Of a DNA stretch of 64,000 nt, positions 1-1,833 are shown in pieces (the stretch's first letter is position 1; each line of letters begins with the position of its first letter). Source of the stretch: Candidatus Yonathbacteria bacterium (lineage in GTDB: Bacteria > Patescibacteriota > Minisyncoccia > Phycocordibacterales > JACNGX01); the NCBI GenBank assembly GCA_013334825.1, contig JAAXWR010000001.1, positions 75,769-139,768 of the forward strand, given 5' to 3'. The notes beneath the pieces are model-generated. The model was not told the DNA's origin. It was given only the letters and a program-made list of their open reading frames with translations, and made no database searches. The position numbers and the translations under genes are program-made.

Positions 1-1470
1 AGCAAAAGTGGTGCTCGGTAAAGATTTATCGCTATGGGATTGGCCTGCGTAGTATCAGCTTGTTGGTAGTGTAATGGACTACCAAGGCTATGACGCTTAG
101 GGGAGGTGAGAGCCTGACCCCCACCGATGGAACTGAGACACGGTCCATACTCCTACGGGAGGCCGCAGCCGAGAATATTCGACAATGGGCGAAAGCCTGA
201 TCGAGCGACGTCGCGTGATTGATGAAGTCTTTCGGGATGTAAAGATCTTTTATGCGTGAAGAAATTATTGACATTAGCGCATGAATAAGGGGCCGCTAAA
301 CTCGTGCCAGCAGCGGCGGTAATACGAGTGCCCCGAGCGTTATCCGGAATCATTGGGCGTAAAGGATGCGTAGGCGGTTGTGTTAGTCTTTTGTCAAATC
401 CCGAGGCTCAACCTCGGATCGGCGAAAGATACGGCACAACTTGAGGACGCGAGAGGTGCATAGAACTCACAGTGTAGGGGTGGAATCCGTTGATATTGTG
501 GGGAATACCAAATGCGAAGGCAGTGCACTGGCGCGTTCCTGACGCTGAGGCATGAAAGCGTGGGTAGCGAATGGGATTAGATACCCCAGTAGTCCACGCC
601 CTAAACGATGATGACTGGCTTTTCGGAGTATCGACCCTCTGAGAGGCGAAGCTAACGCGTTAAGTCATCCGCCTGGGAAGTACGGCCGCAAGGCTAAAAC
701 TCAAAGGAATAGACGGGGGCTCGCACAAGCGGTGGATTATGTGGTTTAATTCGACGATAAACGAAGAACCTCACCAGGACTAGAAACCAAGCTGCACGCT
801 CCGTGAAAGCGGAGTTCCTTCGAGGGTGCTTGGCAGGTGATGCATGGCCGTCGTCAGTTCGTGGCTTGAGCTGTTCCCTTCAGTGGGGTAACGAACGCAA
901 CCCTCATCGTCTGTTATAAGTGTCAGACGAGACCGCCCAGCCCAAGTATCGAGAGATTTTTCTCGTGATACTCGGGCTGGGAGGAAGGCGGGGATGACGC
1001 CAGGTCAGCATGTCCCTTGATGTCCTGGGCTACACACGTAATACAATGGCCGATACAACGGGTCGCGACGGGGTAACCCTGAGCCAATCCTAATAAAGTC
1101 GGCCCCAGTTCGGATTGAGGTCTGCAACTCGACCTCATGAAGTTGGAATCGCTAGTAATCGCGGGTCAGCTATACCGCGGTGAATATGTTCCCGAGCCTT
1201 GTACTCACCGCCCGTCAAGTCAGGGGAGTCGGGAGTGCCCGAAGTCCCAGCACAGAGCGCGCGTAGCGCGCGGAAACTAGAATTATGAATAATGAATTAT
1301 GAATACAGATATGTGCTTTGCGCATATCTGTCCGTGATTCTTGCTTCTTGATTCGTGATTCCGCACGCAACGCTCGCGCGTTGTGTGCTGGGCCTAAGGT
1401 AAACTCGATGACAAGGACTAAGTCGTAACAAGGCACGGCTAGCGGAAGCTGGTCGTGGAGTATGTCAATT
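1..1470 (+). rRNA. rrs: 16S ribosomal RNA, 5'-truncated by window edge (~200 nt missing); 3' end approximate
   Basis: Conserved 16S blocks in + orientation: CTCCTACGGGAGGC (~150), GTGCCAGCAGCGGCGGTAATAC (~303), GGATTAGATACCCCAGTAGTCC (~575), AAACTCAAAGGAATAGACGG (~697), GCATGGCCGTCGTCAG (~842), GTACTCACCGCCCGTCA (~1200), AAGTCGTAACAAGG (~1420), then an h45-like hairpin CACGGCTAGC-GGAA-GCTGGTCGTG. Minus-strand ORFs in the track here are spurious. Confidence 0.93.
1255..1400 (+). repeat. ~90-nt expansion in the 16S helix-44 region with short tandem repeats (TTATGAATA x2, CGTGATTC x2) and a CGCGCG-TAG-CGCGCG palindrome
   Basis: Distance from CCCGTCA to AAGTCGTAACAAGG is ~200 nt versus ~110 in E. 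coli; internal tandem repeats are visible. Confidence 0.6.
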
Positions 1471-1620
1471 GACGCCCGTTTCGCGGATAGCGAAACTGAT
1501 GTCGGTCCTATCTTTTTTGATAGAGAAGTGTTTGTCTCGGAGCTTTGAATTGAGACAGCAGTAGCGTGCGCTACAAACAACGAACGAGACAAAAGAAAGA
1601 GCGTTTTCATACGAAAAGAA

Positions 1621-1647
1621 AAACGCCTATTAGGCGTTTTTCTTTTG
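1621..1647 (+). terminator. Rho-independent terminator after 16S (AAACGCC-TATTA-GGCGTTT + T-run); a second GC hairpin follows at 1657-1681
   Basis: Perfect 7-bp stem followed by TTTTTCTTTTG. Confidence 0.7.
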
Positions 1648-1833
1648 CCCAAAAAAGCGCGCCGACACGCTGTCGGCGCGCCAAATTCTAAATTCTAAAT
1701 CCGAAATCCTAAACAAATAAGAAGCGCAAGAGCAAACCGCGTGCTTCGCCGGAGAAGGAAAGCATTGACATATTATATATCTATAGTAGTATTTTTTTAG
1801 ATTGTAAATCAATATAAACTAAAAGTATCAGCA

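What the first reader, a model, noticed from the sequence alone, without database searches (positions are those of the whole stretch)
1200..1700. 16S rRNA 3' end appears to lack the CCUCC anti-Shine-Dalgarno; most genes look leaderless
After AAGTCGTAACAAGG the sequence forms a conserved h45-like hairpin (CACGGCTAGC-GGAA-GCTGGTCGTG). The tail then continues GAGUAUGUCAAUUG instead of GAUCACCUCCUUA. No CCTCC occurs in the ~350 nt before two terminators. Across the window most start codons have no GGAGG but do have a TANAAT -10 hexamer 6-10 nt upstream (recG, HAD, rpsB, prfA, rpmE, SGNH, alpha/beta hydrolase, the 16533 ATPase). That is the hallmark of leaderless mRNAs. The few genes with strong GGAGG (44006, 34346, 34568, GIY-YIG) sit in accessory or HGT-like contexts. 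The 16S is also unlinked from 23S (terminated here, followed by protein genes) and carries a ~90-nt h44 expansion. An organism-wide loss of SD/anti-SD pairing would be notable.
Basis: seen in the sequence. Interest (0 to 1): 0.65.

Follow-up and report, generated by a model that had tools for sequence, protein, structure and literature searches.

The report
Parcubacterial 16S without anti-Shine-Dalgarno; leaderless genes
This bacterium (a Candidatus Yonathbacteria, Parcubacteria/CPR) really has a 16S rRNA with no anti-Shine-Dalgarno sequence, and its genes carry promoter -10 boxes placed as in leaderless mRNAs instead of ribosome-binding sites; the loss of the anti-SD is already published for this lineage, so it is a good new example, not a new phenomenon.

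Summary
The Rfam SSU model ends at window 1470. After helix 45 (1434-1457) the tail reads GAGUAUGUCAAUU instead of GAUCACCUCCUUA, and no CCTCC occurs on the + strand before 8945. It is not an artefact. A near-identical organism from another metagenome (L158) has the same tail. All 45 genome-derived and 115 of 119 metagenome-derived 16S genes with this helix-45 type lack CCUCC near helix 45; one keeps the canonical tail.

In the window, 0 of 38 well-defined ATG starts have an SD-like 4-mer (12% at internal ATGs). 53% have TAnnnT starting at -16..-10 (9% in controls). In 309 genes of aSD-less relatives, TAnnnT peaks sharply at -12, the spacing that puts the transcription start on the A of AUG. 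Neither the canonical nor the actual tail pairs preferentially with start regions.

The organism is a Candidatus Yonathbacteria (Parcubacteria). Anti-SD loss in a Parcubacteria subgroup is published (Tsurumaki 2022; Estrada 2024). I found no paper linking it to leaderless promoters.

Two points may be new. CPR relatives that keep the aSD also show no SD enrichment. The replacement tail forms a conserved, covarying mini-hairpin.

Verdict: real, interpretation supported, a new member of a known kind.

The parts
1..1473 (+). 16S rRNA gene. Its 5' end is cut by the window edge (model position 184 onward). The mature 3' end is unknown; the covariance model ends at 1470.
   Evidence: Rfam RF00177, 1202 bits
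1256..1385 (+). Insertion of about 130 nt at the tip of helix 44. It folds as a near-perfect extended hairpin.
   Evidence: 130 nt against 10 model positions in the CM alignment. Fold of 1246-1396: -82.4 kcal/mol, z = -11.1. Also present in L158.
1434..1457 (+). Helix 45: CACGGCUAGC-GGAA-GCUGGUCGUG
   Evidence: CM alignment. The same helix type occurs in 45 genome and 119 metagenome sequences, with covarying pairs.
1458..1473 (+). 3' tail GAGUAUGUCAAUUGAC, replacing GAUCACCUCCUUA. No anti-SD core.
1464..1473 (+). Candidate mini-hairpin in the tail: GUC-AAUU-GAC
   Evidence: A stem of at least 3 bp at this position in 91% of 46 distinct relatives' tails, against a mean of 46% in shuffles. All 4 pairs covary and 91% of cells are paired in the CM-fitted alignment A3.
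1579..1607 (+). 3' strand of the pre-16S processing stem, complementary to the 16S leader seen in L158 (positions 104-130)
   Evidence: BLAST: window 1580-1606 against L158 130-104, minus strand, 92.6%. Co-fold.
1617..1646 (+). Hairpin AAAAACGCC-UAUUA-GGCGUUUUU followed by a U-run; read by eye as the terminator ending the 16S transcript
   Evidence: Seen in the sequence. The consensus scan did not call it; I infer that its stem extension absorbed the T-run.
2464..2478 (+). HAD hydrolase start: TACAAT at -12..-7, then ATG 2476
9484..9502 (+). murD start: TGTGGTATACT, then ATG 9500 (corrected start)
16521..16535 (+). T4SS coupling-type ATPase start: TATACT at -12..-7, then ATG 16533
22751..22765 (+). 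recG start: TACAAT at -12..-7, then ATG 22763 (corrected start)
33356..33372 (+). Alpha/beta hydrolase start: TGGTATAAT, then ATG 33370
44997..45013 (+). SGNH/GDSL hydrolase start: TGGTACAAT, then ATG 45011
52680..52697 (+). rpmE (bL31) start: TATACT, then ATG 52695. The N-terminus MKTDIHPTYY resembles the usual bL31 N-terminus (my own knowledge), which supports this start codon.
52979..52994 (+). prfA start: TGGTATACT, then ATG 52992
61416..61434 (+). rpsB (uS2) start: TGGTACAAT, then ATG 61432 (corrected start)
34337..34801 (+). Exception: two paralogous small ORFs (ATG 34346, 69 aa; ATG 34568, 77 aa), each preceded by GGAGGAAnU
   Evidence: no Pfam family
43996..44344 (+). Exception: ORFan of 112 aa (ATG 44006) preceded by GGAGG plus 5 nt, next to the tRNA at 43743-43826
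25251..31867 (-). Four-gene restriction-modification operon with intergenic gaps of 2-6 nt and no SD. An example of tightly coupled internal genes.

Best explanation
The window comes from a Candidatus Yonathbacteria bacterium (Parcubacteria/Paceibacteria, CPR). Its lineage has lost the CCUCC anti-Shine-Dalgarno core of 16S rRNA.

Shown:
- The 16S tail after helix 45 is GAGUAUGUCAAUUGAC.
- This tail type is shared by essentially the whole clade with this helix-45 type.
- Start-upstream regions pair no better than controls with the canonical aSD or with the real tail.
- SD-like motifs are absent upstream of starts.
- A TAnnnT -10 hexamer, often with an extended TG, sits 6-10 nt before the ATG of about half of the genes.

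Inferred mechanism:
- Most monocistronic and operon-first genes are transcribed from promoters placed so that transcription starts on, or 0-4 nt before, the AUG.
- The ribosome (70S, or 30S with fMet-tRNA and IF2) then recognises the 5'-terminal AUG directly, the known leaderless pathway.
- Operon-internal genes, with gaps of 2-15 nt, are probably translated by termination-reinitiation.
- A minority of genes are leadered and initiate without SD by an unknown route.
- With SD no longer used, the aSD decayed under relaxed selection. Sister CPR lineages that still carry CCUCC already show no SD enrichment, and decay-like tails (CACCUUCUU, CACUUCC) exist in the clade. This suggests that SD use fell first and the aSD was lost second.
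For: - Tail and lack of CCUCC.
- Reproducibility: L158, from another metagenome, has 99.8-100% identical 16S segments and the same tail.
- Clade-wide: all 45 genome-derived 16S genes with CACG-type helix 45 lack CCUCC. Magasanik-, Uhr-, Falkow-, Moran- and Portnoybacteria and Campylobacterota, found by the same tail-agnostic pattern, keep it.
- Metagenomes: of 119 16S genes with this helix-45 type, 4 have a CCTCC within 40 nt of helix 45 and one keeps the canonical tail.
- Window starts: SD 0/38 against 12%; -10 box 53% against 9%, p = 9e-11.
- Unbiased 4-mers enriched near starts are -10 fragments only. The Campylobacterota control gives AGGA and AAGG.
- Duplex energies with the real or canonical tail are not better at starts than at internal ATGs.
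- T at -1 in 65% of starts against 27% of all ATGs, p = 5e-6.
- Corrected starts of rpsB, recG and murD also have TACAAT or TATACT boxes.
- Pooled aSD-less clade, 309 genes: TAnnnT peaks at a single offset, -12 (17%; flanking offsets 2-8%; 1.6% at internal ATGs). SD 14% against 13%.
- Six of 48 genes are coupled, with gaps of 20 nt or less.
- Organism name from the only database match of ORF 44006; 16S nearest relatives are Parcubacteria.
- Published loss of the aSD in a Parcubacteria subgroup: PMC9297842, PMC10783764.
Against: - No transcription start or mature 16S 3' end has been mapped. 'Leaderless' rests on promoter geometry.
- In the window the TAnnnT peak is at -14/-13 rather than -12, so many transcripts may carry 1-4 nt leaders.
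- About 20 of 48 window genes have neither a proximal TAnnnT nor tight coupling. Some are start mis-calls, and some have -10 boxes 20-50 nt upstream, so they are leadered.
- Three ORFs have perfect GGAGG at SD spacing, which an aSD-less ribosome does not explain.
- Only 64 kb of the genome was examined, so a second 16S gene cannot be excluded.
- Intergenic AT-richness inflates TAnnnT counts relative to coding controls. The positional peak, not the raw enrichment, is the stronger evidence.
- The SD-positive control set is small (18 genes).
Confidence: 0.8

Rival explanations
1. SD-independent but leadered initiation, as in Bacteroidota. On this view the AT-rich TAnnnT signal before the ATG is an unstructured or A/U-rich translational enhancer in a 5' UTR, not a promoter, and promoters lie further upstream.
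For: Upstream regions are AT-rich overall. Some genes have good promoters 20-50 nt upstream: 1834 with TTGACA-16-TAGTAT, 54088 and 34346. No transcription start has been mapped.
Against: - The signal is a specific hexamer (TATACT, TACAAT, TATAAT), often with an extended -10 TG.
- It peaks sharply at one offset, -12, in 309 genes.
- T(-1)/A(+1) enrichment fits a transcription-start dinucleotide.
- Enriched 4-mers are -10 fragments, not A-runs.
Confidence: 0.1
2. The new tail is a replacement anti-SD. mRNAs carry a complementary non-canonical ribosome-binding motif.
For: The tail is conserved for about 18-20 nt across a deep clade, so it is under some constraint.
Against: Duplex energy of the real tail with -25..-1 is weaker at starts (-5.4 kcal/mol) than at internal ATGs (-6.3). 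No k-mer complementary to the tail is enriched. Earlier surveys found no matching variant SD in aSD-less organisms (PMC6107228).
Confidence: 0.03
3. Artefact or incomplete picture. The aSD is separated from helix 45 by an unrecognised intervening sequence, or the gene is a defective copy and another 16S gene with CCUCC exists. That copy could also serve the few GGAGG-led genes.
For: CPR 16S genes do carry insertions. L158 has about 1.1 kb and about 0.9 kb insertions that the window lacks. Three ORFs have canonical GGAGG. Only 64 kb of the genome was seen.
Against: - No CCTCC on the + strand for 7.4 kb downstream.
- The trailer pairs with the leader at 1579-1607 and a terminator-like hairpin follows at 1617-1646, so the transcript ends without any CCUCC.
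- The same tail type occurs in 45 genomes and more than 110 metagenome contigs.
- The 16S is otherwise intact (1202 bits).
- SD is absent from housekeeping genes.
Confidence: 0.03

Closest known systems
aSD-less subgroup of Parcubacteria (Tsurumaki et al. 2022, RNA 28:1041, PMC9297842; Estrada et al. 2024, PLoS One, PMC10783764: Campbellbacteria and Wolfebacteria listed as 'SD-scarce, no CCUCC')
   Same: Same superphylum and the same feature: no CCUCC after helix 45 and scarce SD motifs. The window's nearest 16S relatives all show it (Taylor-, Nomura-, Zambryski-, Adler- and Ryanbacteria).
   Different: Those papers report the loss but do not say what replaces SD. PMC9297842 contains no occurrence of 'leaderless'. 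Here the start-proximal -10 box, its -12 peak across the clade, and the conserved replacement tail are described. Yonathbacteria is not named in PMC9297842's main text.
Bacterial genomes rich in leaderless transcripts (GeneMarkS-2 'group C': Actinobacteria, Deinococcus-Thermus; Lomsadze et al. 2018, PMC6028130)
   Same: A Pribnow box about 10 nt upstream of the start codon of operon-first genes, with a 6-8 nt spacer, matching.
   Different: Group C organisms keep the aSD and use SD for their leadered and internal genes. Here the aSD is gone and SD is at or below background.
Flavobacteriia/Bacteroidota, Mycoplasma and insect endosymbionts that lack or do not use the aSD (Lim 2012; Amin 2018, PMC6107228)
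   Same: 16S tail without CCUCC, and no matching SD in front of genes.
   Different: From my own knowledge, Bacteroidota mRNAs are mostly leadered with A-rich upstream regions. GeneMarkS-2 puts that group in 'group B' with a non-SD RBS motif. Here the signal is a promoter hexamer at leaderless spacing.
Nanoarchaeia and haloarchaea, and mammalian mitochondria (leaderless mRNAs; small-subunit rRNA without aSD in Nanoarchaeia and mitochondria)
   Same: The same combination: leaderless-type gene starts together with loss of the aSD. Estrada 2024 attributes the Nanoarchaeia case to leaderless mRNAs.
   Different: Different domain or organelle, and different promoter types (an archaeal box at about -26). 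The mitochondrial comparison rests on my own knowledge and was not tested here.

Membership tests
aSD-less Parcubacteria subgroup (PMC9297842) | 16S 3' tail after helix 45 lacks the CCUCC(U) motif | tested here: met
   CM alignment; no + strand CCTCC in 1-8945
aSD-less Parcubacteria subgroup (PMC9297842) | Organism belongs to Parcubacteria | tested here: met
   Closest 16S genes (81-85% identity) are Taylor-, Nomura-, Zambryski-, Adler- and Ryanbacteria/Paceibacterota. ORF 44006 is identical to an NCBI protein of a Candidatus Yonathbacteria MAG. Lineage: Parcubacteria group.
aSD-less Parcubacteria subgroup (PMC9297842) | The state is shared by relatives, so it is not a sequencing or assembly error | tested here: met
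   All 45 genome-derived and 115 of 119 metagenome-derived 16S genes with the same helix-45 type have no CCTCC near helix 45. Identical tail in L158.
aSD-less Parcubacteria subgroup (PMC9297842) | Overlap with the uL1-lacking group (rplA absent) | not testable with these tools
   Absence of a gene cannot be shown from a 64-kb window.
Leaderless-rich bacteria (GeneMarkS-2 group C) | -10 (Pribnow) box about 10 nt upstream of start codons of operon-first genes | tested here: met
   53% against 9% in the window. Peak at -14..-12 in the window and at -12 in 309 clade genes.
Leaderless-rich bacteria (GeneMarkS-2 group C) | Transcription start coincides with the start codon (experimental 5'-end mapping) | not testable with these tools
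   No RNA data. Only indirect support: T(-1)/A(+1) enrichment.
Leaderless-rich bacteria (GeneMarkS-2 group C) | Remaining (leadered or internal) genes carry SD-type RBS, and the 16S keeps the aSD | tested here: not met
   SD 0/38 in the window and 14% against 13% in the clade. aSD absent.
Canonical SD-dependent bacterial initiation | CCUCC in the 16S tail, and SD motif enriched 5-10 nt before starts | tested here: not met
   The same pipeline detects SD in the Campylobacterota control (33% against 7%).
Bacteroidota-type SD-independent, leadered initiation | Non-SD motif at short distance upstream of all genes, including operon-internal ones, that is not a promoter | tested here: inconclusive
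   The enriched motif is TAnnnT/TATAAT-like with a -12 peak, which reads as a promoter. Coupled internal genes lack it. Without transcription-start data a translational role cannot be formally excluded.

The most novel reading that the evidence does not exclude
In the aSD-less Parcubacteria clade the single-stranded anti-SD tail has not simply decayed. It has been replaced by a conserved element of about 18-20 nt (GAWUAAUUC-AAUU-GAA type; GUC-AAUU-GAC here) that forms a covarying 3'-terminal mini-hairpin in the 16S rRNA. The hairpin might define or protect the 3' end, or occupy the platform where the SD helix would sit. Translation in these bacteria would then run almost entirely on leaderless initiation plus reinitiation, a free-living bacterial counterpart of mitochondrial or nanoarchaeal translation. 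SD-independent initiation would predate the loss, because CPR sisters that keep CCUCC already show no SD enrichment and the same -12 promoter peak.
Probability: 0.35. Interest if true: 0.65.

Novelty: new member of a known kind. Interest (0 to 1): 0.45.

Why it matters
SD:anti-SD pairing is the textbook mechanism of bacterial start-site selection, and complete loss of the anti-SD is rare. This window gives a clean, internally consistent example from Parcubacteria, a large, uncultured and environmentally abundant lineage. The rRNA tail, the absence of SD and the promoter geometry all point the same way.

It has practical consequences. Gene callers that rely on RBS motifs will mis-place starts in these genomes: several longest-ORF starts here were wrong, while the ATG behind the -10 box fitted the protein families. 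Heterologous expression of CPR genes, or expression in CPR, must take leaderless design into account.

It also offers an evolutionary series within one radiation for asking how a ribosome gives up SD recognition: aSD kept but unused, then decaying tails, then a replaced tail.

Tried and rejected
- Hidden aSD after an intron or further downstream: rejected. No + strand CCTCC for 7.4 kb. In relatives, CCTCC within 400 nt after helix 45 is at chance frequency with no positional consistency.
- Replacement SD complementary to the real tail: rejected.
- Alternative genetic code (UGA sense, as in SR1/Gracilibacteria) as a cause of odd gene starts: not supported. ORFs are long (up to 1491 aa) and TGA ends 12 of 64 ORFs.
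- Peregrinibacteria/Gracilibacteria affiliation, my first guess: rejected by the 16S comparison. Those have TATCC-type helix 45 and degenerate AUCUCCUUA or CACUUCCUUA tails at 70-73% identity.
- MAFFT alignment of tails for covariation: failed. It was gapless, so the 3' arm was out of register. Replaced by a direct hairpin/shuffle test and a CM-based alignment.
- Phage or HGT origin of the GGAGG-led ORF 44006: no support. No phage hit and no homologue besides itself.
It was then found at 61393-62184.
- The consensus scan did not call the + strand terminator at 1617-1646. I keep it on the basis of the sequence itself.
- Literature searches linking CPR, Parcubacteria or Patescibacteria with leaderless mRNAs found nothing specific. 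This does not prove it is unpublished.
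Full report
OBSERVATION. The Rfam bacterial SSU model matches window 1-1470 on the + strand (model 184-1533, 1202 bits); the 5' end is cut by the window edge. A focused scan of 1000-1750 shows the 3' end residue by residue. AAGUCGUAACAAGG lies at 1420-1433 and helix 45 at 1434-1457 (CACGGCUAGC-GGAA-GCUGGUCGUG). The tail GGAGUAUGUCAAUU aligns opposite the consensus GGAUcACCUCCUUu. 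An insertion of 130 nt sits where the model has 10 positions at the tip of helix 44 (1256-1385). CCTCC does not occur on the + strand anywhere between 1 and 8945.

ORGANISM. A tail-agnostic scan of one genome per species, using the A1396U signature YCTTGTACTCACCGCCCGTCA, returned 120 loci from many CPR lineages and from Campylobacterota. By 16S identity the nearest are Parcubacteria/Paceibacteria, at 81-85%: Taylor-, Nomura-, Zambryski-, Adler- and Ryanbacteria and 'Paceibacterota'. ORF 44006-44344 is 100% identical to a hypothetical protein of a Candidatus Yonathbacteria MAG on a 450-kb contig. NCBI places that organism in the Parcubacteria group.

IS THE TAIL REAL AND HOW WIDE IS IT? Every one of the 45 genome-derived 16S genes with the same CACG-type helix 45 lacks CCUCC. 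Most share a tail of the type GAWUAAUUCAAUUUGAA. In the same scan, Magasanik-, Uhr-, Falkow-, Moran- and Portnoybacteria and all Campylobacterota keep GGAUCACCUCCUUUC. Peribacteria have degenerate AUCUCCUUA or CACUUCCUUA.

A second tail-agnostic scan, of metagenome contigs, used the helix-45 sequence itself and gave 119 usable 16S ends. Four have a CCTCC within 40 nt of helix 45, and only one (L214) has the canonical GAUCACCUCCUUUCU tail. Two look like decay intermediates: GAUCACCUUCUUUCU in L148 and GAUCACUUCC in L216. One contig (L158) is from a near-identical organism, with 16S segments 99.8-100% identical, and carries exactly the window's tail and h44 insertion. Sequencing or assembly error, or a private pseudogene, is therefore excluded.

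NO HIDDEN OR REPLACEMENT ANTI-SD. In aSD-less relatives, CCTCC within 400 nt downstream of helix 45 occurs at chance frequency (8 observed, 8.4 expected) and at no consistent position. The trailer at 1579-1607 is complementary to the 16S leader seen in L158 (L158 104-130), which is the usual pre-16S processing stem. A terminator-like hairpin follows at 1617-1646. The transcript therefore ends without any CCUCC. Predicted duplex energies between the 25 nt upstream of starts and either the real tail or the canonical tail are weaker than for internal ATG controls. There is thus no alternative SD:aSD pair.

GENE STARTS IN THE WINDOW. Of 38 ORFs of at least 100 aa whose longest-ORF start is ATG, none has GGAG, GAGG or AGGA at -18..-5, against 12% of 891 internal ATGs. 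Twenty (53%) have TAnnnT starting at -16..-10, against 9.3% (p = 9e-11). The offset profile peaks at -14, -13 and -12 (18, 21 and 12% of genes), against 0-12% at the flanking offsets -30 to -17. The 4-mers most enriched in -20..-1 relative to -40..-21 are ATAA, TAAC, ATAC, ACAA and CAAT, all fragments of a -10 box. T occupies -1 in 65% of starts against 27% of all ATGs, as expected for a pyrimidine(-1)/purine(+1) transcription start on the A of ATG.

Housekeeping genes with identifiable families behave the same way:
- rpmE: TATACT, with an N-terminus MKTDIHPTYY that resembles the usual bL31 N-terminus.
- prfA: TGGTATACT.
- HAD hydrolase: TACAAT at -12.
- The 16533 ATPase: TATACT at -12.
- SGNH hydrolase: TGGTACAAT.
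- The SLT-domain protein at 51267: TACAAT.
- bL25 at 50504: a weaker TATCGT.

Several ORFs whose longest form starts at TTG or GTG have a downstream ATG that fits the Pfam domain boundaries and sits behind a strong box. These are rpsB ATG 61432 (TGGTACAAT), recG ATG 22763 (TACAAT at exactly -12..-7) and murD ATG 9500 (TGTGGTATACT). Of 48 genes, 22 have a proximal box before these corrections, and 6 are tightly coupled to the upstream gene (gap of 20 nt or less). An example is the four-gene restriction-modification operon at 25251-31867, with gaps of 2-6 nt. The other 20 fall in neither class; some are start mis-calls and some have promoters 20-50 nt upstream.

THE SAME ANALYSIS IN RELATIVES. 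rRNA and tRNA were masked by cross-locus conservation, and the same pipeline was applied to genes flanking the 16S in the panel.
- aSD-less Paceibacteria (309 genes): TAnnnT shows one sharp peak at offset -12 (17% of genes at that single offset; flanking offsets 2-8%; 1.6% per offset at internal ATGs). SD-like 4-mers are at background (14% against 13%).
- aSD-bearing CPR (105 genes): also a -12 peak (12%) and no SD enrichment (11% against 12%).
- Campylobacterota (positive control, only 18 genes): SD enrichment (33% against 7%, p = 0.002) and AGGA/AAGG as the top enriched 4-mers.
A hexamer at -12..-7 is the spacing that places the transcription start on the A of the ATG. This is the published signature of leaderless genes (GeneMarkS-2 group C; PMC6028130).

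EXCEPTIONS. Three intergenic ORFs have a perfect GGAGG 4-5 nt before the ATG: 34346 (69 aa) and 34568 (77 aa), which are paralogous small, probably membrane proteins, and 44006 (112 aa), next to the tRNA at 43743-43826. By eye, the 34346/34568 pair lies behind a TTGACA-17-TATTCT promoter-like site at about 34275-34303. None has a Pfam family. The 44006 ORF has no homologue but itself and no phage match. I cannot say whether these motifs function. They are unexplained by an aSD-less ribosome and are the main internal evidence against a complete loss of SD use.

THE REPLACEMENT TAIL. The tails of the clade are conserved for about 18-20 nt after helix 45 and contain a short inverted repeat at a fixed place. 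It is GUC-AAUU-GAC here and in L040, UUC..GAA in most, CUC..GAG in four, and UCC..GGA in five. A Watson-Crick stem of at least 3 bp at that position is found in 91% of 46 distinct tails, against 46% on average (maximum 76%) in 1000 shuffles. A covariance model of helix 45 plus this hairpin (R1) aligned 99 loci. In that alignment all four hairpin pairs show changes on both sides (for example UA 69, CG 7, GC 2, AU 1 at the outer pair) and 91% of cells are paired. For the whole structure, pairing falls from 97.6% to 28-45% when partners are slid. The alignment is fitted to the model and the sequences are related, so this is suggestive and not proof. Whether the hairpin is part of the mature rRNA is unknown.

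MECHANISM.
Shown: no aSD; no SD; no complementary substitute; -10 boxes at leaderless spacing; tight coupling of operon-internal genes.
Inferred: transcription starts on or within a few nucleotides of the AUG, and the 5'-terminal AUG is recognised directly by initiator-tRNA-loaded ribosomes. Internal genes are read by termination-reinitiation. A leadered minority initiates without SD by an unknown route. CPR sisters with an intact CCUCC already lack SD enrichment, and decay-like tails exist. The most economical history is therefore that SD use fell first and the unused aSD then decayed or was replaced.

WHAT IS KNOWN. Loss of the aSD is rare but documented: 128 taxa in Amin 2018 (PMC6107228), mainly Flavobacteriia, Mycoplasma and Carsonella. 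Estrada 2024 (PMC10783764) lists SR1, Campbellbacteria, Wolfebacteria and Peribacter among 'SD-scarce organisms lacking CCUCC'. Tsurumaki 2022 (PMC9297842) states that the anti-SD motif is missing in a subgroup of Parcubacteria that overlaps the uL1-lacking group, and that SD helices presumably do not form there. That paper contains no occurrence of 'leaderless'. The same paper reports frequent absence of bS21 in Parcubacteria. Five full-text searches found no paper tying CPR or Parcubacteria to leaderless promoter geometry. The library is incomplete, so this is absence of evidence only.

VERDICT. It is a new member (Yonathbacteria) of a lineage already known to lack the aSD. Three things go beyond what I found published: the leaderless link, the observation that aSD-retaining CPR relatives also lack SD enrichment, and the conserved replacement hairpin. 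All three rest on sequence statistics alone.

LIMITS. Only 64 kb of the genome was seen. Gene starts were assigned by a simple longest-ORF rule. The control sets are small, especially Campylobacterota. No RNA data were available.

Noticed in passing
L158 1096-2180 and 2892-3773 (corresponding to window positions ~583 and ~1208); also window 944-973: A near-identical organism (16S segments 99.8-100% identical) has two large insertions in its 16S gene that the window's copy lacks. One is about 1.08 kb. The other is about 0.88 kb and lies inside the decoding-centre strand CAC|CGCCCGUCA, with a weak Rfam group-II-intron D1-D4 match (35.2 bits at L158 3173-3266). There is also about 87 extra nt at window 944-973. 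This is a strain-level presence/absence polymorphism of rRNA introns.
   Followed up: partly
window 1256-1385: A 130-nt insertion at the tip of helix 44 folds as a near-perfect hairpin (-82.4 kcal/mol, z = -11). It is shared with L158 but absent from the other close relatives, whose signature-to-h45 spacing is about 72 nt. Tsurumaki 2022 reports that CPR usually have a shortened h44 tip, so this is the opposite.
   Followed up: partly
window 1579-1607 with L158 104-130; L158 3-31: The leader-trailer complementarity of the pre-16S transcript (a stem of about 20-27 bp) is intact. In L158 the 16S promoter reads TTGACT-17-TGTGTATAAT. The rRNA gene itself is therefore conventionally leadered and processed.
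   Followed up: partly
L003, L009, L015, L025, L032, L035, L046, L057, L102, L105, L111 and others (aSD-bearing CPR loci): CPR lineages that keep a canonical GGAUCACCUCCUUUC tail (Magasanik-, Uhr-, Falkow- and Moranbacteria) show no SD enrichment upstream of 105 genes (11% against 12%). They have the same TAnnnT peak at -12 and T at -1 in 68% of starts. SD disuse may be much wider in CPR than aSD loss.
   Followed up: partly
window 62261-62311, 44474-44490, 8780-8811 (- strand sense), 1683-1713, 16457-16513: Short tandem arrays of 7-8 nt units lie in intergenic regions directly upstream of tsf, mscL and other genes: CTAACCTC x6.4, TAATCTCC x2, AGGAGATT x4, AAATCCT x4.4 and AACTAAC x7.7. Several units contain TAAYYT, a TAnnnT-like hexamer, and CCTCC or CTCC on the sense strand. 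Function unknown (serial -10-like elements, or DNA-curvature or regulator sites?).
   Followed up: no
window 3618-3942 and 46028-46394: Large tandem duplications abut tRNA genes. A 113-nt unit x2.9 starts inside the 3' end of the tRNA at 3562-3635. A 193-nt unit x1.9 (99% identical) starts right after the tRNA at 45957-46027 and duplicates the start of an ORF (46070 and 46263). They look like footprints of integration or excision at tRNA genes.
   Followed up: no
window 16331-16387, 49679-49756, 46028-46060 and 46221-46253: A dispersed motif of about 21 nt, CCACGTAGG(A/G)TGCAC/GGG, forms hairpins (for example CCCTGCACCACGTAGGGTGCAGGG) and recurs in several intergenic regions, like a REP-type element.
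   Followed up: no
window 34337-34801 and 43996-44344: Three small ORFs of unknown function have a perfect GGAGG at SD spacing in an organism without an aSD. The two at 34346 and 34568 are paralogues. The one at 44006 is an ORFan beside a tRNA gene. They are unexplained.
   Followed up: partly
whole window: GGAGG is over-represented (95 sites on both strands against 59 +/- 7 expected from shuffles). It is strongly skewed to the + strand (76 against 19), which carries most of the genes, and many copies lie inside coding regions. This would fit an absence of selection against internal SD-like sequences when the ribosome has no aSD, but codon usage was not controlled.
   Followed up: no
window 1196-1216 and loci L002-L121: The A1396U change in the universally conserved 1390-1407 strand (UACUCAC instead of UACACAC) is shared by many CPR phyla and by Campylobacterota. 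The window also has a compensated change in the 530 pseudoknot region (GCGGCGG with CGCUAA; by eye, not tested further).
   Followed up: no
window 25251-31867 (- strand): A restriction-modification operon: an AAA_13 ATPase, an N6/N4 DNA methylase, an AlwI-family endonuclease, and a RadC-JAB domain fused to a Dam-type methylase. Intergenic gaps are 2-6 nt. A T4SS coupling-protein-like ATPase lies at 16533-18686.
   Followed up: no
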